Assembly: GCA_029907515.1 (NCBI GenBank)
Contig: JARYLT010000003.1
Coordinates: 3,448 to 67,447, forward strand
Length of the DNA: 64,000 bases
Direction: 5' to 3'
From: Spirochaetota bacterium
GTDB lineage: Bacteria > Spirochaetota > UBA4802 > UB4802
Every line of letters begins with the position of its first letter. Position 1 is the first letter of the stretch. Both the position numbers and the translations under genes were made by a program. This document shows positions 113 to 29,134 of this stretch, one piece after another. The notes under the pieces are model-generated. The model saw nothing but the letters and a program-made list of their open reading frames with translations, did no database searches and was not told the origin of the DNA.

Positions 113-1117
113 TTAGCCTTCCTGAAGTTTGGTAAGTGTTTGTGCAACGCTACCGCTATGGATGACGTCAAGCGCTATCGTGTAATTATCTTCTATGGAT
201 GAATCGTCATCCAGTACAAAAAGTGCCAGTGCTGTATTCAGTGCTAAAAGTTTGCTAAGTGGGGTGAGTGTAGTATTGTTTATCGTTTCAATAAACAGTG
301 TTGCATTTTCCTGCGGTGATAAATCTTTAGGGATAGCATTGGCTTCATCGTTACTTAAAAATTTTTCTGGATTAATGGTGAATGTGCTGATCTTGTTATT
401 ACAAATTTCAACTACATGGGTTGGATGTAGTGGTGATACCTCATCCATGCCATTTGCAGAAGAATAAAGTATCAGGCGCTCATATCCTAAAGGCAATGCA
501 GCCTGTGCATAAACTTCTAAAAATGAAGGGTGAAAAACCCCAATCATCTGACGTTTTGGTTGTAATGGATTGGTAAGCGGCCCTAAATAATTGAATATGG
601 TGCGCACGCCCAATTGTTTGCGTACCGGTGCTGCATGTTTCATGGCAGGATGGTAATTGGGTGCAAACAAAAATATAAATTTATATTTGTTAAAATAGCG
701 CACTGCATCCTGCCCTGAAAGGTTTACCGGTATATTCAGGGCTTCATAAAAATCAGCCGAGCCGCTTTTGCTGGTAACCGAACGGTTGCCATGTTTTGCA
801 ATTGGGTAGCCCATGGCGTTAAGAATAATGGCAACAGCGCTTGATATATTGAATGAATGTGAGTGATCGCCACCGGTGCCGCAGGTGTCAAAGACGCTTT
901 CAGTGATGGGAAGGCTTACTGCAAATTTCCGCATTGATTTAATGGCACCGCTGATTTCCTCGGGTTTTTCCCTGCGTACTTTCATTGCAGCAAGCACTGC
1001 CGCTAGTTCAATCTGTGATATCCTGCCATCAAAGATGGAATCAAACAGATATTCGGATTGTTCCATGGATAATGTGTTGCCTTCAATTGTTTGCGTTATA
1101 AGCTGTTCTGTATTCAT
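113..1117 (-). CDS. trpD: anthranilate phosphoribosyltransferase
   Basis: 334-aa ORF with the DTCGTGGD phosphoribosyltransferase motif and overall TrpD-like sequence. It overlaps the trpG 3' end, consistent with an operon. Confidence 0.9.
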   Translation of the reverse strand: MNTEQLITQTIEGNTLSMEQSEYLFDSIFDGRISQIELAAVLAAMKVRREKPEEISGAIKSMRKFAVSLPITESVFDTCGTGGDHSHSFNISSAVAIILNAMGYPIAKHGNRSVTSKSGSADFYEALNIPVNLSGQDAVRYFNKYKFIFLFAPNYHPAMKHAAPVRKQLGVRTIFNYLGPLTNPLQPKRQMIGVFHPSFLEVYAQAALPLGYERLILYSSANGMDEVSPLHPTHVVEICNNKISTFTINPEKFLSNDEANAIPKDLSPQENATLFIETINNTTLTPLSKLLALNTALALFVLDDDSSIEDNYTIALDVIHSGSVAQTLTKLQEG

Positions 1118-1676
1118 AAGATCCTCCTGTAAAATTTTTTAAAATCTGTAATCCGTACTCTGATGCGTACGATTCGGGGTGAAACTGTACACCCCATATA
1201 AATTTTGTTTTATGTTTTAAAGCCATGATTTCGCCATCGCTTGAACGGGCTTCAATGCTAAGGCAGTTGGGGAAGTTAGTTTCACTTACCACCAGTGAAT
1301 GGTAACGGGCAGCGGTAAATTGTTGTGGAATGTTATGAAACAGTTTTCCGCCATAATGTTGAATTATATCAGTTTTACCGTGCATGATTTTTTTTGCATG
1401 AACTATTCTACCACCATATACATACCCAATTGCCTGCATGCCCAGGCACACACCCAGAATGGGTATATCATGAATGTTTTGAATGACGGTTACTGTAATG
1501 CCTGAATGCGCTGGGGATGAAGGGCCAGGTGATAAAATGATACCGGTGTAGTCGTGGAAATTAATTGACTCAAAATCCGCATTGTTGCGGTAAACATCCA
1601 CATCTTCTCCCAGTATGCGCATGTACTCAACCAGATTATAGGTAAATGAGTCATAGTTATCAATTATACAGAACAT
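1083..1676 (-). CDS. trpG: anthranilate synthase component II (glutamine amidotransferase)
   Basis: 197-aa class-I glutamine amidotransferase with the GVCLGMQ catalytic-Cys motif and HPES. Its start overlaps the trpE stop (TAATG). Confidence 0.85.
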   Translation of the reverse strand: MFCIIDNYDSFTYNLVEYMRILGEDVDVYRNNADFESINFHDYTGIILSPGPSSPAHSGITVTVIQNIHDIPILGVCLGMQAIGYVYGGRIVHAKKIMHGKTDIIQHYGGKLFHNIPQQFTAARYHSLVVSETNFPNCLSIEARSSDGEIMALKHKTKFIWGVQFHPESYASEYGLQILKNFTGGSYEYRTAYNANN

Positions 1677-3169
1677 TACACAATCTCCTTTACCATAGTT
1701 TTTGATTTTGCAAACGGCAGGCTTACCGAAAGCGCTTTAAGTTTATGTACTATTTCATTAAATTCATTCTCCGGAATACTATCGTACACAATGCCAGCAC
1801 CCGCCTGTAAAAATGACCCTTGAGGCGAAAAAACAGCTGTCCTGATGGTAATACAGGTATCCATGGTATTGTTAAATCCAATGTAGCCCACACACCCGGC
1901 GTAAATGCCACGGGGATGCGGTTCAAGCTGGTCAATAATTTCAATAGCGCGCACCTTGGGGGCTCCGGTTACTGTGCCAGCAGGAAAGGTATGGCGCAGT
2001 ACATCGCTTAAACTAATCCTGTCATTGAGTGTAGCAGTAACGTTTGAAACCAGGTGAATAACGTGCGAATAATCTTCCGGTTGCATAAACTGAGTTACCT
2101 GCACGCTTCCCGGCTTTGCAATGATACTTAAGTCATTGCGTGCTAAATCAACAAGCATCAGGTGTTCTGCGCGTTCTTTTTCATTGTTAAGCAAAATCTC
2201 TTTGTTTTTTTTATTCTGAGCCTTTGTTTTTCCCTGGGCGATAGTTCCTGCAATTGGCCTTAACGTTGCAATAGTGTCCTGTACTTTAACGTGAATCTCC
2301 GGCGAGCTTCCGGCAACAGTAAGATCGCCGTGTTTCATGTAAAACATGTATGGAGATGGGTTAACCTGCCTCAGTTTGAGATAAAAACGATATGGGTCAA
2401 CAGGTTCATTGATATATGCACGCATACTTAAAACAATCTGCAATGCCTCGCCATCTTCAATTAAGGCTTTTGCCTGTGCCACTGAATCCATGAATTCGTC
2501 GGGTGAACTGCTAAAATCAAGGTGTATTGATTCAGAGTATGCAGGCAGGTATGGCAGCGAAGTTGAGGATAGTGTATTGATAATGGTATCTTCATAGGTA
2601 TGAAGGCGTTGTATTGCCTGGTTATAGGCTGATTCAATGCTACCATCATGTGTATAGATACATGTAGCAATGTAGTATGTGTTGTATTTATTGTCATAGC
2701 AGATGAAGTCATCAATATGGTGCAGCACCATTAATGGATGCAGTGTATCCTGGTGTATGAATTGTCGCAAATGACCGGTGTAGTTAACCAGGTCATATGC
2801 AAAATAACCTGATAGGCCTCCGTTATATGAACCAAAGCGTTTAAAAGACGGTGAGCGATATTGAGCAATATATTTGTCAATATAATCAAATGGATCAGAA
2901 CAGGGGATTGTCGTAGTTTTGGAGCTATCACCTGTCATTATATACGGTGGGCTAAAGTAAAGCGTTTGTACCGGATTAAAACCCAGAAAAGAATATCTGC
3001 TTTGTTTTTTGTTTTGCCTGGCGCTTTCAAAAAATATACAATCGCCATTATTGATGAACGATTTCAGTAAAAGCAGTAAACCGGGATGAGAAATATTAAG
3101 CTGCTTATAGATAGGGATGCGATTATATGTGCTGCTTAAATGTTTGCATTGCTGTAATGTTGGATACAT
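1676..3169 (-). CDS. trpE: anthranilate synthase component I
   Basis: Chorismate-binding enzyme signature (GAPKVRAIEIIDQLE, GIYAGCVGY). Start is placed at the internal Met (MYPTLQQ), which has a GGAG SD 7 nt upstream. The longer ORF-track start would run through the two terminator hairpins. Confidence 0.9.
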   Translation of the reverse strand: MYPTLQQCKHLSSTYNRIPIYKQLNISHPGLLLLLKSFINNGDCIFFESARQNKKQSRYSFLGFNPVQTLYFSPPYIMTGDSSKTTTIPCSDPFDYIDKYIAQYRSPSFKRFGSYNGGLSGYFAYDLVNYTGHLRQFIHQDTLHPLMVLHHIDDFICYDNKYNTYYIATCIYTHDGSIESAYNQAIQRLHTYEDTIINTLSSTSLPYLPAYSESIHLDFSSSPDEFMDSVAQAKALIEDGEALQIVLSMRAYINEPVDPYRFYLKLRQVNPSPYMFYMKHGDLTVAGSSPEIHVKVQDTIATLRPIAGTIAQGKTKAQNKKNKEILLNNEKERAEHLMLVDLARNDLSIIAKPGSVQVTQFMQPEDYSHVIHLVSNVTATLNDRISLSDVLRHTFPAGTVTGAPKVRAIEIIDQLEPHPRGIYAGCVGYIGFNNTMDTCITIRTAVFSPQGSFLQAGAGIVYDSIPENEFNEIVHKLKALSVSLPFAKSKTMVKEIV

Positions 3170-3189
3170 TGTATTACTCCTTGCTGTAA

Positions 3190-3226
3190 AATAAAAAAGC
3201 CGTGGATTTGAACTAAACCCACGGCC
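3190..3226 (-). terminator. intrinsic terminator hairpin B, second of a tandem pair in the trp leader
   Basis: On the minus strand, GCCGTGG..CCACGGC forms a 7-8 bp stem followed by TTTTTTATTTT. It sits 15-20 nt upstream of the trpE SD. Confidence 0.5.
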
Positions 3227-3238
3227 TGATGCGTGTAC

Positions 3239-3275
3239 AAAAAAAGCCGTGGGTTTGATGTCCACCCACGGCTTT
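3239..3275 (-). terminator. attenuator terminator hairpin A of the trp leader
   Basis: On the minus strand, AGCCGTGGGT-GGACATCAA-ACCCACGGCT forms a 9-10 bp GC-rich stem followed by T7. Its left arm and loop contain GGTGGACATC, which is complementary to the end of the leader ORF. Confidence 0.6.
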
Positions 3276-3304
3276 GCCATTTTCATTTATACAATAATAG
3301 CCCT

Positions 3305-3376
3305 TCAGGTGGACATCATGTTTGTCCACCACCACCAGCTATTGTTAACTGCAAATGTTACCAGTGTTATCTTCAT
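3305..3376 (-). CDS. trpL: trp operon leader peptide with four consecutive Trp codons
   Basis: Minus strand reads ATG AAG ATA ACA CTG GTA ACA TTT GCA GTT AAC AAT AGC TGG TGG TGG TGG ACA AAC ATG ATG TCC ACC TGA, which is MKITLVTFAVNNSWWWWTNMMST. The Trp codons and the stop overlap the hairpin GGTGGACA/TGTCCACC. It is directly upstream of terminator A and trpE. Confidence 0.65.
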   Translation of the reverse strand: MKITLVTFAVNNSWWWWTNMMST

Positions 3377-3527
3377 TGCTGTGTTACGTTTAATGCCTTT
3401 AAAATTATATCGTTAAATGACATAAAAACTAGAAATAAAAAATGTCAACAATTTTTTATTTTTTAATATTTACATCATCTGTCTGATGTTTATCTATGCT
3501 CTGTTCCACAGGGCATGATTGCGAAAG

Positions 3528-3617
3528 TCAGGTACGAATACCAAGCTTTGGAAATACATAAATATTCAAAGCAAACCACAGTGCCATAAGGATCAAAAAC
3601 CATATTGCTTCTTTCAT
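3528..3617 (-). CDS. small hydrophobic peptide (29 aa), hypothetical
   Basis: MKEAIWFLILMALWFALNIYVFPKLGIRT, with a single predicted TM helix. Lies between the selenoprotein gene and the trp leader. Weak SD. Below the ORF-track size cutoff. Confidence 0.2.
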   Translation of the reverse strand: MKEAIWFLILMALWFALNIYVFPKLGIRT

Positions 3618-3635
3618 ACGTGTACCTTTTACATT

Positions 3636-3941
3636 TTATCCACAGGATGAACCTGTATCAACCATAAAACCAGCACCATACGGTGTGTCCACAAAATCTA
3701 TGGTAATGTTGGTTCCAGCATCCATAAACCTTGCAATATCGCTGTCATACATTACGGGGATTTCGTTTGCAATTACTACTGTATCTTTTGTGTTTTCTGA
3801 CTCATCCAGAGCCAGTCCCAGACGGGGGCCGCCTCATCCAATACCGGCAAAAACAAGTCTTAATCCAGGCTGCTTAAATTCAACATCTTTGGCAGCTTCA
3901 ATAATTTTTTGTTTAGCTGAATCTGTAATAGTTATGTTCAT
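3636..3941 (-). CDS. HesB/IscA-like iron-sulfur cluster insertion protein with an in-frame UGA at the conserved Cys position (candidate selenoprotein)
   Basis: Minus-strand translation is MNITITDSAKQKIIEAAKDVEFKQPGLRLVFAGIG-[TGA]-GGPRLGLALDESENTKDTVVIANEIPVMYDSDIARFMDAGTNITIDFVDTPYGAGFMVDTGSSCG. The TGA at 3834-3836 is in frame and aligns with the Cys of the A-type carrier G-C-x-G motif. The C-terminal SSCG is retained. It is absent from the ORF track because of the TGA. Confidence 0.6.
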
Positions 3942-4167: not shown

Positions 4168-6543
4168 TTAATACACTATATCCAACACTTCCTCAAAATA
4201 GCTTACAAAGCGCGCATCAATGCCTTTCTTGATATGTTCGGGTAATTCATCAAAATCTTTTTTATTCTCGGCAGGGTAAATGATGGTTTTAACCTTTGCT
4301 CGTTTAGCTGCAAGGGTCTTTTCTTTTACTCCTCCAATAGGAAGCACTCTTCCGGTAATGGTCAGCTCGCCGGTCATTGCCACACTTTTTTTAATGGGCT
4401 TATTTTTAGCAAGTGAGTACAGTGCCGTAGCCATAGTAATACCGGCTGAAGGACCATCCTTGGGGGTAGCGCCTGCTGGTACATGCAGGTGTATAAAATG
4501 ATTTTCAAAGAAATTGGGATCAATGCCAAACTGCTTAACTTTGGAGCGAATATATGAATAGGCAATTTCCGTTGATTCTTTCATAACATTGCCAAGCTGT
4601 CCTGTTTGTGTAAAACCCTTTGTTTTTGATGGTATTGCGGTTGCTTCAATATACAGCGTTGCACCACCCAGGCTTGTCCAGGCAAGCCCCATGACCACCC
4701 CCGGAATTGGCTTTTTATAAAGCGATTCATCGGTAAAACGGGGTTTGCCCAATAACTCTTCTAAATTTTGTGTTGTGACAGTAACTGTTGATGTTGTCCC
4801 TTCAATAATTTGTCGGGTGGCTTTTCGCATAATCTTTTTTATGTTATTTTCCAAACTTCGAACACCTGCTTCACGCGCATAGCCTTCTATAATATTTTTT
4901 AGAGCTGCTGTATCTATCTTAACCTCGTTTTTATGCAGCCCATGTTCTTTCATTTGCTTGGGGATTAGGTATCGCTTTGCTATCTCTAATTTTTCTTCCA
5001 GTATATAGCCGGACAGATGCATGATTTCCATACGGTCCATTAAAGGCAGGGGAATAGTGTCCAATTGATTGGCAGTTGCAATGAAAAGGATATTTGATAA
5101 ATCATAGCGTACATCTAAATAGTGATCAAGGAACTGTGAATTCTGTTCAGGATCAAGTACTTCCAGTAATGCTGATGCAGGATCGCCCTGAAAGCTTGCA
5201 CCTATCTTATCAATTTCATCAAGCATGATGACCGGATTTGATGTCTCTACCACCTTAAGACTCTGGATAATTTTCCCGGGCATTGCCCCAATGTATGTGC
5301 GACGGTGACCTTTGATTTCGGCTTCATCACGCATGCCACCAAGTGAAAAACGATAAAATTTTCGGTTCAATGCTGCAGCCACTGATTTGCCAATAGATGT
5401 TTTACCAACACCGGGAGGTCCAACAAAACAAATTATTGAACCGGTAATACTGCCCTTCTTTTTACCAGCGCTGATAAATTCTAAAATGCGGTCTTTTATA
5501 TCCTGTAGTCCATAGTGATCACGGTCCAGAATTTTTTTTGCTTTGTTAATATCGTAATTATCTTCTGAATAGATGCCCCATGGCAAGGATGTAAGCCAGT
5601 CTAAGTAATTGCGGCTTACTCCATATTCTGCTGAATGTGGCTCAAGAACTTTTAATTTTTCCAATTCTTCGTTAAAGCGCTTTAATGCCTCTTCGCTTAA
5701 TTTAAGTTTTTTTACACGTTCCTCAAACTTTTCAATTTCAGAAGTTTTTTCATCTTTTTCAAGTCCCAGCTCTTTTTTGATTTCCTTAAGCTGTTCCCGT
5801 AAAAAGAATTCCTTCTGGTTTTTGGCAATGCGTTCTTCTATTTGCTGTGAAATTTTTTTCTGTAGTTTTGATAATTCTAATTCTTTCTTTAAAAGCAGCA
5901 AAACCTTCTCAACACGTGCTTTAACATCAAATGTTTCAAGGATGTCCTGCACCTCTGCTGGTTCTGCTGAGGTAAGTGATGCAACAAAATCAGCTAATTT
6001 TCCTGGGTCTTCTAAACTAAAGCGGTTAAGGAAAAGTTTAAGCTCTTCTTGAAACAGGGAATTTGATTTAATTAATTCCTTAACGGAAGAAAGAATTGCT
6101 GCAGAATATGCTTTCATCTCATCGGTTGGTTCAAGCTCGGGTTCGTAATAGTGGTCCACTTTCCAGCGAATAATGGGTTGATCGGTTACTATCTGCTGTA
6201 AGGTGAAGCGCTTTAATGCATTCACCATTACCTGTATGGTGTTTTCATCAATAGGTGCTATCTTCAATACTTTAATGGTAACTCCCACCTTGTAAAGGTC
6301 ATCAGATGTAACCATGCCTTCACGCTGATTCTGGATTAACACTACACCGCCAATTTTGTGGTCCGATTCGGCAATGGCACGCGCAGTATTCAGCATAGTA
6401 TCACCGGTAAGAACCAGTGGTACCATCATGCCAGGGAATATCGGCCTGTGGGATATGGGTATAATGGGGATAATTTCGGGCAAAATTTCAGATGGCAGAA
6501 TCAGGTGTTTTGACTCAACAGCATGGCTTGAATCATCCGGCAT
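4168..6543 (-). CDS. lon: ATP-dependent Lon protease
   Basis: 791 aa with an N-terminal LON domain, AAA+ Walker A (GPPGVGKTS) and a C-terminal Ser protease domain (PKDGPSAG). AGAGGTGA SD. Confidence 0.95.
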   Translation of the reverse strand: MPDDSSHAVESKHLILPSEILPEIIPIIPISHRPIFPGMMVPLVLTGDTMLNTARAIAESDHKIGGVVLIQNQREGMVTSDDLYKVGVTIKVLKIAPIDENTIQVMVNALKRFTLQQIVTDQPIIRWKVDHYYEPELEPTDEMKAYSAAILSSVKELIKSNSLFQEELKLFLNRFSLEDPGKLADFVASLTSAEPAEVQDILETFDVKARVEKVLLLLKKELELSKLQKKISQQIEERIAKNQKEFFLREQLKEIKKELGLEKDEKTSEIEKFEERVKKLKLSEEALKRFNEELEKLKVLEPHSAEYGVSRNYLDWLTSLPWGIYSEDNYDINKAKKILDRDHYGLQDIKDRILEFISAGKKKGSITGSIICFVGPPGVGKTSIGKSVAAALNRKFYRFSLGGMRDEAEIKGHRRTYIGAMPGKIIQSLKVVETSNPVIMLDEIDKIGASFQGDPASALLEVLDPEQNSQFLDHYLDVRYDLSNILFIATANQLDTIPLPLMDRMEIMHLSGYILEEKLEIAKRYLIPKQMKEHGLHKNEVKIDTAALKNIIEGYAREAGVRSLENNIKKIMRKATRQIIEGTTSTVTVTTQNLEELLGKPRFTDESLYKKPIPGVVMGLAWTSLGGATLYIEATAIPSKTKGFTQTGQLGNVMKESTEIAYSYIRSKVKQFGIDPNFFENHFIHLHVPAGATPKDGPSAGITMATALYSLAKNKPIKKSVAMTGELTITGRVLPIGGVKEKTLAAKRAKVKTIIYPAENKKDFDELPEHIKKGIDARFVSYFEEVLDIVY

Positions 6544-8274: not shown

Positions 8275-9378
8275 ATGAAAAATAAATGTAATATTAACTC
8301 CTTAGCGCAGTCAGTTATTGTATGTGTCATGCTTGGCATGGGGTTTATGTCAAATTCTGCTTTTGCAGAATCCGTATTTTTGAAGGATGGAAGTATCATT
8401 GAAGGTGATATAGTCAAGGAGACCGATAAAGCTACGACAGTAAAGACAAGGGAAGGGAAGACCGTAACGATACAGCGGAAGGATATTTTGAGGACGCTGG
8501 TAAATGAAAGCTATAAGACACGGATGTATATTATGAAAAGTAACAAGGAGGTATTAGGGGTATACATTGTAGAAGAGGATAATGAGAGCTATACGTACAG
8601 GACAGAGTTGCAATCAGCGGAGGAATATAAGATAAATAAGGACGATGTATTATTTGTTTCAAAGATACCGCCCAAGGATTTTATAGATGAGGAGGTACAG
8701 AAGAAAGCAGCGGAATTAGGGATAAAGAAGAAGTATACACGGGAAGAGAACCTGAAATGGCGCGCACCGTTTATACGGGTGGCGTATTCAAATTATGTGC
8801 AATATGATGATGAACTGGAATATTTATTTCCAGAACCAGCGCCAGCTTTACTATTAGATATTTTTTTCTGGCGTTTTAGAGATGAAAAGGGTAATGGATT
8901 TGATATAATGGGAAGGTTACGTAATCATGGAAGAAAGGCTGATTTGAATGGTGGTGATCCAAGAACTTCAAAATATTCACAATTATATAATATAACAATA
9001 TCACCTACACTTCCATATAGTACTGATTTCTTTTTGAATTCAATCTCAGGAGGGTTACGATATGCATATGGGTGGTATGTTGGATATGTAATGGTACAGC
9101 CGTATATATTTGCATTATATCAATATGGGATGATTAATTCAATGATTTCTTATAATGATGGTGTAAGTGATAAAACAAAAGATATAAATATGAACACACA
9201 TGGTTATCAGGCGGGAGCAGGTGTTGATGTAGGGCTTTTTTCCTACTTTGGAATATTTATTGAAGTAAGCTACGGGTATGCAAAAGCCAAATTCGCTAAT
9301 GGTGAAGCTTATAATTTTGATGGCATTTCAGTATATTATGGAGTAAGCTGGTGCACATCGTTTGGTTTGATTGAGTGA
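8275..9378 (+). CDS. secreted hypothetical protein, paralog A (possible outer-membrane beta-barrel C-terminus)
   Basis: GGAGGG SD. Signal peptide with cleavage at SAFA-ES. Residues from about 30 to 167 are identical to the downstream paralog. The C-terminal half is rich in Tyr/Gly/aromatic alternation and ends ...GVSWCTSFGLIE. Confidence 0.8.
   Translation: MKNKCNINSLAQSVIVCVMLGMGFMSNSAFAESVFLKDGSIIEGDIVKETDKATTVKTREGKTVTIQRKDILRTLVNESYKTRMYIMKSNKEVLGVYIVEEDNESYTYRTELQSAEEYKINKDDVLFVSKIPPKDFIDEEVQKKAAELGIKKKYTREENLKWRAPFIRVAYSNYVQYDDELEYLFPEPAPALLLDIFFWRFRDEKGNGFDIMGRLRNHGRKADLNGGDPRTSKYSQLYNITISPTLPYSTDFFLNSISGGLRYAYGWYVGYVMVQPYIFALYQYGMINSMISYNDGVSDKTKDINMNTHGYQAGAGVDVGLFSYFGIFIEVSYGYAKAKFANGEAYNFDGISVYYGVSWCTSFGLIE
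8362..8773 (+). repeat. 412-bp segment identical to 9631-10042 (shared 5' coding module of the tandem paralogs)
   Basis: Base-for-base identity on direct comparison of the two stretches, with sharp divergence on both flanks. Confidence 0.85.
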
Positions 9379-9543
9379 ATTTGATTTAATTACTAATGAT
9401 TTTGTTTTGTATCTCTTAATAATTTTATATAAAGAATGGTCAGTTAAAAACAGTGATATGCATGCAGGGTATATAAAATAACTAATGAATAATAATAGCC
9501 TGGGACATTGAAATAGGTAGATAATTTGTATAGGAGAGCTTTC

Positions 9544-10647
9544 ATGAAGAAGATAGCAAGAGACTTTTTTTTAGCACACATACTTATAGTTAGTTGTGTT
9601 ATTGTATGGTTTATGTTTTCAGGGAATGTATTTGCAGAATCCGTATTTTTGAAGGATGGAAGTATCATTGAAGGTGATATAGTCAAGGAGACCGATAAAG
9701 CTACGACAGTAAAGACAAGGGAAGGGAAGACCGTAACGATACAGCGGAAGGATATTTTGAGGACGCTGGTAAATGAAAGCTATAAGACACGGATGTATAT
9801 TATGAAAAGTAACAAGGAGGTATTAGGGGTATACATTGTAGAAGAGGATAATGAGAGCTATACGTACAGGACAGAGTTGCAATCAGCGGAGGAATATAAG
9901 ATAAATAAGGACGATGTATTATTTGTTTCAAAGATACCGCCCAAGGATTTTATAGATGAGGAGGTACAGAAGAAAGCAGCGGAATTAGGGATAAAGAAGA
10001 AGTATACACGGGAAGAGAACCTGAAATGGCGCGCACCGTTTATGCGCTTTGGGTATTCAAACTTTGGAGTTTATATAGATTCTGATATTAATGATGCATA
10101 TTCCGAGAGCCGTAACATTAATGCTTTCATTGATATATTCCCCTGGCGGTTTAGAAATGAAAGTGGGAATGGATTTGATGCCATGATAAGAGCACGTTTT
10201 GTAGGCAATTTTGATGAAATTAATCCCACTGATCCAAGAACACAAACATTTTTAAAATTATATCAAGTTACTATAGACGAAAGCTATGAATCCAAACTCA
10301 ACATTGGTCAGATTTGTGGTGGAGTCAGATATGCCTACAGCATGTATTATGGTGTTTTGATACAACCCTATGTGTATGGATTATTGCAATTGTTTGTATT
10401 TCATGATGAAATAAAAATTGAATCTCTTAATTCAAATGCTATTGATGAACAGGTGTCATCGTCAAAATTGGGATACCAGTTTGGTGCAGGAGTTGATTTT
10501 GGAATAACCTCATACGTTGGTTTGTTTATTGAAGGAATGTATAGCTACATTGGCGCAAAATTTAAAGATGGAAAGACAAGAAATGTTGATGGTTACTATA
10601 TTTACTATGGAGTAACCTGGCGTACATCGTATGGTTTGATTGAGTGA
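9544..10647 (+). CDS. secreted hypothetical protein, paralog B
   Basis: ATG at 9544 has a TAGGAGAG SD; the ORF-track TTG start at 9526 is less likely. Signal peptide cleaved at NVFA-ES. The next ~137 aa are identical to paralog A, and the C-terminal half is diverged (ends GVTWRTSYGLIE). Confidence 0.8.
   Translation: MKKIARDFFLAHILIVSCVIVWFMFSGNVFAESVFLKDGSIIEGDIVKETDKATTVKTREGKTVTIQRKDILRTLVNESYKTRMYIMKSNKEVLGVYIVEEDNESYTYRTELQSAEEYKINKDDVLFVSKIPPKDFIDEEVQKKAAELGIKKKYTREENLKWRAPFMRFGYSNFGVYIDSDINDAYSESRNINAFIDIFPWRFRNESGNGFDAMIRARFVGNFDEINPTDPRTQTFLKLYQVTIDESYESKLNIGQICGGVRYAYSMYYGVLIQPYVYGLLQLFVFHDEIKIESLNSNAIDEQVSSSKLGYQFGAGVDFGITSYVGLFIEGMYSYIGAKFKDGKTRNVDGYYIYYGVTWRTSYGLIE
9631..10042 (+). 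repeat. second copy of the identical 412-bp module
   Basis: Identical to 8362-8773. Confidence 0.85.
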
Positions 10648-28734: not shown

Positions 28735-29134
28735 AAGTTTCCTCCATGATAGAAAAATAATCTCATTAAAAATATTATAATAATACAATCTTATAATGTC
28801 AATAAAAATATTTATTATAATTAATATTTTTTTTAGATAGTTAATAATATATATACATATTATAAATAATGTAATATCAGAACAAAATAATGAGAGGTAT
28901 TGAGTGGTGAAGTTCAATATTTATACTATATGATAGGGGTAATTTATAACTTTACTTTCTTATTTATATATATTACATGATTTATGTGTTGTTATTCATT
29001 TACTGATTACGTTACCATTTATATAAGCATAAAGAGTTGTTATTATGTATAGAAGCGTTGTAATCATTGAGAACATTGTAGAAATGGCATTGAAGTGATA
29101 CAATGATTAACTATTGTTTTCAGAGGAGGTGGCC

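What the first reader, a model, noticed from the sequence alone, without database searches (positions are those of the whole stretch)
3186..3376. Trp leader peptide (MKITLVTFAVNNSWWWWTNMMST) with a two-stage attenuator built from shared hairpin arms
A 23-codon ORF with four consecutive Trp codons lies directly upstream of trpE. Its last codons and stop (GGTGGACA...TGTCCACC TGA) form hairpin 1:2. Segment 2 (GATGTCCACC) is also perfectly complementary to GGTGGACATC, which lies inside the left arm and loop of terminator A (AGCCGTGGGTGGACATCAAACCCACGGCT + T7). That gives a 2:3 antiterminator and a 3:4 terminator, the classic ribosome-stalling design. The right arm of A (ACCCACGGC) is also perfectly complementary (9 bp) to the left arm of a second downstream hairpin B (GCCGTGGGT...CCACGGC + T6). 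B therefore forms only when A has formed. This chained arrangement is more elaborate than the textbook E. coli attenuator.
Basis: partly seen in the sequence, partly recalled or inferred. Interest (0 to 1): 0.6.

Follow-up and report, generated by a model that had tools for sequence, protein, structure and literature searches.

The report
Tryptophan leader attenuator with two terminators
This is a tryptophan-sensing leader peptide switch in front of the trpEGD genes of an uncultured spirochaete; it is the well-known attenuation mechanism, but built with two terminators in a row that one leader peptide probably controls through a chain of competing RNA hairpins.

Summary
These are a 23-codon ORF with four consecutive Trp codons, hairpin 1:2, the 10-bp 2:3 complementarity, and two terminator-like hairpins A and B whose arms cross-pair. 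They lie directly upstream of trpE-trpG-trpD.

The design is not chance. All 30 loci with TrpE 58-98% identical that included upstream DNA (Spirochaetota/Leptospiraceae MAGs and metagenomes) carry the same leader. Nine of 12 more distant loci (45-55%) carry a Trp-run leader, and seven of those nine have two terminators.

The 2:3 antiterminator pairs in 98.6-100% of cells, with compensatory changes. A change in segment 2 is compensated in both segment 1 and segment 3.

Masked folding shows that a ribosome on a Trp codon frees segment 2 to capture the left arm of A, whereas a ribosome at the stop codon does not. Once 2:3 exists, 4:5 is about as stable as B or more stable.

The main caveat is that the A-left:B-right pairing is conserved equally well. 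Comparative data therefore cannot single out 4:5, and the relay step is inferred.

No Rfam family matches and I found no paper describing it. The closest precedent for chained hairpins is the Salmonella his attenuator. Verdict: an undescribed variant of a known mechanism, of moderate interest.

The parts
3305..3376 (-). Leader peptide ORF (trpL-like), 23 codons, MKITLVTFAVNNSWWWWTNMMST*
   Evidence: An in-frame ORF with a Trp run is conserved in all 30 close loci and in 9 of 12 distant loci. The frame is kept across 3-nt indels (WWW versus WWWW).
3326..3337 (-). Four consecutive Trp codons (UGG x4), the sensor. GGUGG within them is also one register of segment 1.
   Evidence: unique in the window, 0.01 expected. 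RNAalifold pairs GGUGG with CCNCC of segment 2 in all 22 sequences.
3337..3343 (-). 5' arm (AAUAGCU) of an outer helix that encloses hairpin 1:2
   Evidence: MFE. 86.6% of cells paired, and 3 pairs changed on both sides (helix 1).
3323..3330 (-). Segment 1 (GGUGGACA)
   Evidence: Helix 2: 90.8% paired, with UA->CG and GC->AU double changes in the distant clade.
3305..3317 (-). Segment 2 (GAUGUCCACC plus the stop codon UGA). It pairs with segment 1 or with segment 3.
3296..3302 (-). Post-stop GGCUAUU. This is the 3' arm of the outer helix; alternatively its GGCU pairs with AGCC at the base of A, extending the antiterminator.
   Evidence: helix 1; helix 2, 92.1% paired, one double change; MFE with a stalled ribosome.
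3257..3273 (-). Segment 3: left arm of terminator A (AGCCGUGGGU, 3273..3264) plus loop. GGUGGACAUC (3266..3257) pairs with segment 2.
3239..3254 (-). Segment 4: right arm of terminator A (ACCCACGGCU, 3254..3245) and the U7 tract (3245..3239)
   Evidence: A: 10 bp, 9-nt loop, -18.9 kcal/mol, 100% of cells paired.
3215..3227 (-). Segment 5: left arm of terminator B (AGGCCGUGGGUUU). It is also complementary over 10 bp to segment 4.
3188..3209 (-). Segment 6: right arm of terminator B (AAAUCCACGGCUU, 3209..3197) and the U6-A-U4 tract
   Evidence: Found by the terminator scan. 94.6% of cells paired. -17.6 to -18.2 kcal/mol.
3177..3182 (-). Shine-Dalgarno AAGGAG of trpE
   Evidence: conserved in alignment A1.
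1676..3169 (-). trpE (anthranilate synthase component I), the regulated gene. The true start is the ATG at 3169, not the longer ORF that starts at 3286.
   Evidence: Pfam PF00425 + PF04715. Homologues of 497 aa cover it 100%.
1083..1676 (-). trpG (glutamine amidotransferase)
113..1117 (-). trpD (anthranilate phosphoribosyltransferase)
3404..3448 (-). Probable promoter region: TTGACA (3448..3443) and TATAAT (3409..3404), 33 nt apart. The transcription start is not determined.
   Evidence: Read. The spacing is conserved in L001-L003 and L019. The consensus scan found no canonical promoter here.

Best explanation
This is a ribosome-mediated transcription attenuator that senses charged tRNA-Trp and controls trpE-trpG-trpD. 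It is built from six RNA segments, and both even-numbered hairpins of the off state (3:4 = A, 5:6 = B) are intrinsic terminators.

Trp plentiful. The ribosome translates the 23-codon leader to its stop codon. There it covers segment 2 and the post-stop GGCU. After release, segment 2 is held by segment 1, including the Trp codons themselves. Segment 3 is therefore free, and terminator A (3:4) forms and stops RNA polymerase at its U7 tract. Any polymerase that leaks through A finds segment 4 locked inside A, so segment 5 pairs with segment 6. Terminator B then gives a second chance to stop.

Trp scarce. The ribosome stalls on the UGG run and masks segment 1. Segment 2, the stop codon and the post-stop GGCU pair with the left arm and loop of A (2:3, 13 bp plus 2-4 bp). 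A cannot form, and polymerase passes its U tract. Segment 4 emerges unpaired and captures segment 5 (4:5, 10-12 bp) before segment 6 is made. B is also suppressed, and trpEGD is transcribed.

What is shown here:
- the sequence elements;
- their conservation and covariation;
- their energies;
- the dependence of the predicted fold on ribosome position.

What is inferred:
- translation of the ORF;
- termination at A and B;
- kinetic precedence of 2:3 and 4:5.

My confidence that this is a Trp leader-peptide attenuator is about 0.85. My confidence that B is controlled through the 4:5 relay is about 0.6.
For: Anatomy.

Conservation:
- All 30 loci with TrpE 58-98% identical that included upstream DNA have the Trp-run ORF, the stop codon next to segment 2, and two U-tailed hairpins.
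- Of 12 loci at 45-55% identity, 9 have a Trp-run leader and 7 of those have two terminators.

Covariation:
- The off-state structure is 93.8% paired, with 9 pairs changed on both sides (0 of 500 shuffles reach this). Slid controls pair 36-47%.
- 2:3 is 100% paired in 19 sequences and 98.6% in 22. It shows C-G -> U-A, A-U -> U-A and A-U -> G-C changes.
- The CA -> UG change in segment 2 of the distant clade is matched in segment 1 (UG -> CA) and in segment 3 (G -> A).

Energies for the window, in kcal/mol:
- 1:2: -11.9
- extended 2:3: -20.4
- A: -18.9
- 4:5: -16.9
- B: -18.2

Masked folds:
- With a ribosome on Trp codon 1 or 2, the MFE of the window transcript up to A is the extended 2:3. With the ribosome on codon 1, the MFE of the transcript up to B is 2:3 + 4:5. 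With the ribosome on the last Trp codon or at the stop codon, the MFE up to A is terminator A; up to B it is A + B at the stop codon and the nested 3:6/4:5 long hairpin on the last Trp codon.
- In all 22 sequences, before arm 4 is made, 5-10 of the 10 nt of the A left arm are paired to the segment-2 region when the ribosome is on a Trp codon. With the ribosome at the stop codon the number is 0-1 in 17 of 22 and 4-5 in the other five, the window's own subclade and L042.

Relay:
- Given 2:3, the state 2:3 + 4:5 is within 0.8 kcal/mol of, or up to 7.5 kcal/mol better than, 2:3 + B.
- The direct-path barrier from 4:5 to B is 9-12 kcal/mol.

Terminators: both hairpins have 7-13 bp stems and 6-8 U in the next 9 nt in all 22 sequences.

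RNAalifold independently recovers 1:2, A and B.
Against: - No experiment exists. The organism is an uncultured MAG lineage.
- The window's leader ORF has no Shine-Dalgarno sequence at normal spacing. The distant clade does have AAGGA 4-5 nt upstream.
- At equilibrium, terminator A is still the MFE with a stalled ribosome in L003, L005, L008 and L011. Antitermination must therefore be kinetic, as it is in E. coli trp.
- The folding tools exclude pseudoknots. The base of A could in principle still close around the 2:3 helix.
- The A-left:B-right pairing (3:6), which has no role in the relay, is conserved as well as 4:5 (95.0% versus 94.7%). The comparative signal shows only that A and B stay alike, not that 4:5 is the selected pairing.
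- Two related lineages (L032, L037) manage with one terminator.
- The promoter and transcription start are not defined.
Confidence: 0.75

Rival explanations
1. This is an ordinary single-stage Trp attenuator (1:2 / 2:3 / 3:4) followed by a second terminator that is not regulated. B would be a leftover or fail-safe from a tandem duplication of A. The 4:5 complementarity would be a by-product of A and B being copies and would have no regulatory role.
For: The 3:6 pairing, which is useless for a relay, is conserved as well as 4:5. L032 and L037 have only one terminator. The A and B cores change together (CCGUGG/CCACGG to CCGCGG/CCGCGG in L033 and L039), as concerted evolution of duplicates would also produce.
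Against: B is a strong hairpin (-17.6 to -18.2 kcal/mol, U6-7). It is kept in at least 13 lineages, down to 52% TrpE identity, while its loop and the A-B spacer diverge freely. An unregulated efficient terminator in front of trpE would cap expression under starvation. Given the sequences, 4:5 is about as stable as B or more stable whenever segment 4 is free, and it is made first. Some coupling therefore seems physically hard to avoid.
Confidence: 0.17
2. The terminated leader transcripts, ending at A or at B, are the functional product. They would act as trans-acting small RNAs and/or a functional leader peptide, as with rnTrpL/peTrpL of Sinorhizobium. The strong sequence conservation of the arms would then reflect target pairing rather than, or in addition to, cis regulation.
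For: Sequence conservation of segments 2-6 is unusually high relative to TrpE divergence (alignments). A precedent exists in PMC6614838 and PMC7298713.
Against: No target was sought or found. Each conserved position is already explained by two or more alternative pairings. The N-terminal part of the peptide is not conserved.
Confidence: 0.05
3. Control is exerted by a protein or ligand (TRAP-like protein, T-box/tRNA, riboswitch or operator-bound repressor). The Trp-codon ORF would be incidental and untranslated.
For: The window's leader ORF lacks a clear Shine-Dalgarno sequence. Related loci carry a palindromic operator-like site at the trpE promoter.
Against: No Rfam T-box or riboswitch match appears even at E <= 10. 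The ORF, its frame, its Trp run and its stop position are conserved in 39 loci despite free variation of the N-terminal codons. The palindrome is absent from the window. Where the palindrome occurs without a leader (L043), the terminators are absent too.
Confidence: 0.03

Closest known systems
E. coli / enterobacterial trp operon leader (trpL attenuator; Rfam Trp_leader RF00513)
   Same: A short leader ORF with consecutive Trp codons lies upstream of trpE. Segments 1:2, 2:3 and 3:4 are mutually exclusive, and 3:4 is an intrinsic terminator. The position of the ribosome chooses the fold. The antiterminator is kinetically rather than thermodynamically favoured. (Established knowledge.)
   Different: There is no sequence or structure match to the Rfam model, even at E <= 10. 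The window has four Trp codons, not two. Segment 2 lies inside the ORF and abuts the stop codon. The Trp codons themselves form part of segment 1. A second terminator is coupled through 4:5. The host is a different phylum (Spirochaetota).
Salmonella / E. coli his operon attenuator (segments A-F)
   Same: Six segments pair alternately: A:B, C:D, E:F in the off state and B:C + D:E in the on state. A ribosome stalled at the 5' end propagates its effect through a chain of hairpins to a distal terminator (B:C, D:E and E:F from PMC4046918; C:D from my own knowledge).
   Different: In his, only the last hairpin (E:F) is a terminator. Here the middle hairpin (3:4) is also a full intrinsic terminator with a U7 tract, and A and B share the same stem sequence. 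The sensed codons are Trp, not His.
Rfam RF04312 trpB ncRNA motif
   Same: Two hairpins, the second a terminator with a U tract, sometimes upstream of trp genes. It was the best Rfam hit over hairpins A and B (33.5 bits).
   Different: The score is far below the gathering threshold (59). The family is a riboswitch candidate of Firmicutes and Fusobacteria, mostly upstream of an ABC transporter, with no leader ORF (PMC11109978). The match reflects only generic two-hairpin-plus-U-tract geometry.
Sinorhizobium meliloti trpL attenuator / rnTrpL
   Same: A leader-peptide attenuator upstream of trpE(G) in a genome whose trp genes are split into several operons (PMC6614838).
   Different: It has a single terminator and documented trans functions of the RNA and the peptide. 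Nothing of that kind is shown here.

Membership tests
Ribosome-mediated (leader-peptide) transcription attenuators of amino-acid biosynthetic operons | Short ORF enriched in codons for the pathway's end product, immediately upstream of the operon | tested here: met
   A 23-codon ORF with four consecutive UGG codons starts 207 nt upstream of the trpE start codon.
Ribosome-mediated (leader-peptide) transcription attenuators of amino-acid biosynthetic operons | Intrinsic terminator (GC-rich hairpin plus U tract) between the leader ORF and the first structural gene | tested here: met
   There are two. A: 10 bp, U7, -18.9 kcal/mol. B: 12-13 bp, U6, about -18 kcal/mol.
Ribosome-mediated (leader-peptide) transcription attenuators of amino-acid biosynthetic operons | An antiterminator pairing that excludes the terminator and is itself excluded by pairing with a segment that overlaps the regulatory codons | tested here: met
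   The 1:2, 2:3 and 3:4 pairings overlap. 2:3 is 98.6-100% paired, with compensatory changes also mirrored in 1:2. Masked folds switch with ribosome position.
Ribosome-mediated (leader-peptide) transcription attenuators of amino-acid biosynthetic operons | Read-through depends on translation of the leader and on the supply of the charged tRNA | not testable with these tools
   This needs reporter fusions, Term-seq or in vitro coupled transcription-translation.
Rfam Trp_leader (RF00513) | Match to the covariance model at or above its gathering score | tested here: not met
   No match even at E <= 10. Nothing at gathering score in the whole window except two tRNAs.
Rfam trpB motif (RF04312) | Match at or above the gathering score (59 bits); Firmicutes/Fusobacteria; no leader ORF | tested here: not met
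   33.5 bits, E = 0.014. The family description is in PMC11109978.
his-type six-segment attenuator | Six alternately pairing segments, with only the last hairpin acting as terminator | tested here: not met
   Six alternating segments are present. However, the middle hairpin is also a terminator with a U7 tract, and the codons are Trp. It works in a similar way but is not a member.
T-box leaders / riboswitches | Match to a curated RNA family with a specifier or aptamer domain | tested here: not met
   No such Rfam match at E <= 10 in 2800-3900.
TRAP-regulated trp leaders (Bacillus) | 9-11 (G/U)AG triplets spaced by 2-3 nt, overlapping the antiterminator | not tested
   Reading the sequence by eye shows no such triplet array. 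No formal scan was run.

The most novel reading that the evidence does not exclude
One leader peptide controls two intrinsic terminators in series through a relay of five overlapping helices (1:2, 2:3, 3:4, 4:5, 5:6). The first terminator's right arm doubles as the antiterminator of the second. Leak through terminator A is caught by B when Trp is plentiful, while both are switched off together under starvation. This would multiply the dynamic range without a second sensor. It would be a previously undescribed attenuator architecture, conserved across a large uncultured Spirochaetota (Leptospiraceae-related) lineage.
Probability: 0.55. Interest if true: 0.5.

Novelty: new variant of a known kind. 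Interest (0 to 1): 0.42.

Why it matters
Leader-peptide attenuation is a textbook mechanism. As far as the searchable literature and Rfam show, it has not been described for spirochaete trp operons.

If the relay works as inferred, it shows a simple evolutionary route to a tighter switch. Duplicating the terminator automatically makes the old right arm complementary to the new left arm, so the copy comes under the same sensor at no extra cost.

That idea is testable and could be useful for synthetic attenuator design.

In practice, the leader ORF and the two terminators should be annotated. The trpE start should also be set at 3169 rather than at the longer ORF starting at 3286.

Tried and rejected
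- Rfam scans found no family at gathering score. The sub-threshold trpB-motif hit was followed up in the literature and rejected as generic hairpin geometry. The RybB, miRNA and Phe_leader hits are noise.
- I tested whether the shared A/B stem is a dispersed repeat or REP-like element. It occurs only at the trpE leader in the window and, apart from one hit inside L038, in about 207 kb of related loci. Rejected.
- I tried to show selection on 4:5 specifically, using the 3:6 pairing as a control. 3:6 is conserved just as well, so this test does not discriminate. I report it as a caveat.
- Equilibrium folding with a stalled ribosome favours 2:3 in the window but not in several relatives. I therefore looked at the fold before arm 4 is made. 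The findpath barriers for 2:3 -> A (8-26 kcal/mol) are upper bounds from a pseudoknot-free model, and I do not rely on them.
- Literature searches for a spirochaete or Leptospira trp leader, or for leader-peptide attenuators with two or tandem terminators, returned nothing relevant. The Merino/Jensen/Yanofsky review could not be opened.
- The operator-like palindrome seen in relatives was searched for in the window and is absent.
- One pattern search and one repeat search failed on syntax. The pattern search was replaced by a script; the repeat search was not repeated.

Full report
**1. Observation**

- The leader ORF is 3376..3305 and encodes MKITLVTFAVNNSWWWWTNMMST*. Its four UGG codons lie at 3337..3326. 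This is the only TGGTGGTGGTGG in the 64 kb window; 0.01 are expected by chance.
- GGTGGACA (3330..3323) and TGTCCACC (3315..3308) form an 8-bp hairpin. It is followed directly by the stop codon TGA (3307..3305).
- GATGTCCACC (3317..3308) is the perfect complement of GGTGGACATC (3266..3257). That sequence spans the top of the left arm and the loop of hairpin A.
- Hairpin A is AGCCGTGGGT (3273..3264) paired with ACCCACGGCT (3254..3245), then T7.
- Hairpin B is 3227..3215 paired with 3209..3197, then T6-A-T4. The terminator scan found B.
- The right arm of A is a perfect 10-bp complement of the left arm of B.
- AAGGAG (3182..3177) and the ATG at 3169 begin trpE, followed by trpG and trpD (Pfam).
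- The 536-aa ORF listed from 3286 is an in-frame upstream extension. Homologues are 497 aa long and align over the full length from 3169.
- The region folds with a z-score of -5.4.

**2. It is a conserved element, not a chance arrangement or a repeat**

- A genome scan with TrpE returned 11 loci. All were Spirochaetota/Leptospiraceae MAGs with TrpE 58-91% identical.
- A metagenome scan returned 20 more loci.
- All 30 loci that include upstream DNA carry an in-frame Trp-run ORF ending next to segment 2, plus two U-tailed hairpins.
- Peptide N-termini vary freely, for example MKITLVTFAVNNS, MMSRLSTLTINSS, MNMYSISFTTNNN and MNMTLNTYIHTRTTT. The frame, the Trp run (WWWW, WWW or WHWWW) and the stop position are kept, including across 3-nt indels.
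- Twelve more distant loci (45-55% identity) were retrieved through a protein search. Nine of them have a Trp-run leader: L032-L034 and L037-L042. Seven of those have two terminators and two have one (L032, L037).
- L035 and L036 have a short ORF with a single Trp codon and one terminator. L043 has neither a leader nor a terminator.
- The stem motif occurs only at the trpE leader in the window and, apart from one hit inside L038, in about 207 kb of related DNA. A and B are therefore not copies of a dispersed element.

**3. Structure and covariation**

On a MAFFT alignment of 19 distinct sequences (A1):

- The off-state structure (outer helix, 1:2, A, B) is 93.8% paired, with 9 pairs changed on both sides. 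Slid controls pair 36-47%.
- The on-state structure (2:3, its GGCU/AGCC extension, and 4:5) is 97.6% paired, and 2:3 alone is 100% paired.

With six more distant sequences added (A2), 2:3 is 98.6% paired, with three pairs changed on both sides. Hairpin A is 100% paired and B 94.9%.

The clearest case is the distant clade L008-L011/L026. There segment 2 changed from GUCCACC to GUCUGCC. Segment 1 followed (GGUGG.. to GGCA..; UA->CG and GC->AU). Segment 3 also followed (GGUGGAC to GGUAGAC; C-G -> U-A).

One change compensated in two different partners is what a switch between two pairings predicts.

RNAalifold, run without my structures, recovers A, B and a 1:2 register. In that register GGUGG of the Trp codons pairs with CCNCC of segment 2 in all 22 sequences. 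The sensor codons are thus themselves the anti-antiterminator.

**4. Energetics and ribosome position**

Helix energies in the window, in kcal/mol:

| Helix | Energy |
|---|---|
| 1:2 | -11.9 |
| extended 2:3 | -20.4 |
| A (3:4) | -18.9 |
| 4:5 | -16.9 |
| B (5:6) | -18.2 |

I masked 28 nt around the A site to mimic a ribosome.

- A stall on Trp codon 1 or 2 makes the extended 2:3 the MFE of the transcript up to A. This is 13 bp running through the stop codon, plus GG/CC at the base of A.
- With the stall on codon 1, the MFE of the transcript up to B is 2:3 + 4:5.
- A ribosome on the last Trp codon or at the stop codon gives A in the transcript up to A. Up to B, the stop-codon mask gives A + B and the last-Trp mask gives the nested 3:6/4:5 long hairpin.
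- In several relatives A remains the equilibrium MFE even with a stall. The decision must therefore be kinetic. From established knowledge, the same is true of E. coli trp, whose terminator is also more stable than its antiterminator.

I then looked at the fold that exists before arm 4 is transcribed. In all 22 sequences, 5-10 of the 10 nt of the A left arm are already paired to the segment-2 region when the ribosome is on a Trp codon. With the ribosome at the stop codon the number is 0-1 in 17 of 22 sequences and 4-5 in the other five, which are the window's own subclade and L042.

Once 2:3 exists, 2:3 + 4:5 lies between 0.8 kcal/mol worse and 7.5 kcal/mol better than 2:3 + B in the five sequences tested. 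The direct-path barrier from 4:5 to B is 9-12 kcal/mol.

Both hairpins look like intrinsic terminators everywhere, with 7-13 bp stems and 6-8 U in the next 9 nt.

**5. Mechanism**

The best-supported reading is a Trp attenuator with two terminators in series under one sensor.

- **Trp plentiful:** the ribosome reaches the stop codon and covers segment 2. A forms and terminates. Transcripts that leak through A have segment 4 locked, so B forms and terminates.
- **Trp scarce:** the ribosome stalls on UGG. 2:3 forms and A is blocked. The free segment 4 takes segment 5 before segment 6 exists, so B is blocked and trpEGD is transcribed.

The anatomy, conservation, covariation and energetics are shown here. 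Translation of the ORF, actual termination at A and B, and the kinetic order are inferred.

**6. Weak points**

- The relay step is not uniquely supported by the comparative data. The control pairing 3:6 (A-left with B-right), which the relay does not need, is conserved equally well (95.0% versus 94.7%).
- All four arms change together. They are CCGUGG/CCACGG in the near clades and CCGCGG/CCGCGG in L033 and L039. L011 has A-U instead of G-C at the stem base in both hairpins. These changes amount to perhaps two or three independent events.
- This pattern fits a network of constraints (3:4, 4:5, 5:6). It equally fits concerted evolution of duplicates.
- L032 and L037 show that one terminator is sufficient for some lineages.
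- The window's leader ORF lacks an obvious Shine-Dalgarno sequence.
- The promoter is not canonical: TTGACA and TATAAT are 33 nt apart, and the scan found no promoter there.
- The folding tools ignore pseudoknots.

**7. Comparison with known systems**

- No Rfam leader, T-box or riboswitch family matches.
- The best sub-threshold hit, the trpB motif, is a Firmicutes/Fusobacteria riboswitch candidate without a leader ORF.
- In function, this element is a member of the class of leader-peptide attenuators.
- In layout, its closest relative is the his attenuator, whose six segments also relay the ribosome's position to a distal terminator. In his, however, only the last hairpin terminates.
- I found no description of a spirochaete trp leader, or of a leader-peptide attenuator with two coupled terminators, in the searchable library. 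That library lacks most subscription journals, so absence is not proof.

**8. Verdict**

This is a new variant of a known kind. It would not greatly surprise a specialist, but it is a clean, widely conserved and testable design. Interest is about 0.4.

Noticed in passing
L008-L011, L026 (about 25 nt upstream of TTGACA); L032, L035, L036, L037, L040 (two copies) and L043 (between the -35 element and the RBS), all just upstream of trpE: An 18-bp palindrome, GTTTCTAYNNRTAGAAAC, sits at or next to the trpE promoter in many related Spirochaetota loci. It looks like the operator of an unidentified repressor. L043 has the palindrome but no leader peptide or terminator. The window has no copy; there are only two 3-mismatch hits, at 29039 and 53716, which is chance level.
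   Followed up: partly
window 3404-3448 (minus strand): TTGACA (3448..3443) and TATAAT (3409..3404) are separated by 33 nt instead of 17. This spacing is conserved in L001-L003 and L019. An inverted repeat, TGACAT (3447..3442) / ATGTCA (3423..3418), lies between them; L005 has TGACAAA / TTTGTCA instead. The real promoter and any operator here are unresolved.
   Followed up: no
window 3490-3603 (minus strand): A conserved 37-aa hydrophobic ORF (MKEAIWFLILMALWFALNIYVFPKLGIRT) lies between lon (4168..6543) and the trp leader. It is also present upstream of the leader in L001, L002 and L005-L007. It has no Pfam match. It is probably a small membrane protein.
   Followed up: partly
window 3167-3286 (minus strand): The longest ORF for trpE starts at the ATG at 3286 and would read through both terminators. 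Homologues and the RBS show that the true start is 3169. Automatic annotation could therefore mis-call the start and hide the attenuator.
   Followed up: yes
window 8275-9378 and 9526-10647 (plus strand): Two adjacent paralogous ORFs (367 and 373 aa) share a near-identical segment of about 140 aa (ESVFLKDGSIIEGDIVKETDKATTVKTREGKTV...), followed by divergent C-terminal halves that look like beta-barrels. This appears to be a recent tandem duplication.
   Followed up: no
L035 and L036, about 100-170 nt upstream of trpE: At about 45% TrpE identity, the leader ORF has only a single Trp codon (for example MKHIQISNCGWRLITI*) and is followed by one terminator (AGCTGCGG..CCGCGGCT + T6). This may be a degenerate or minimal form of the same attenuator.
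   Followed up: no
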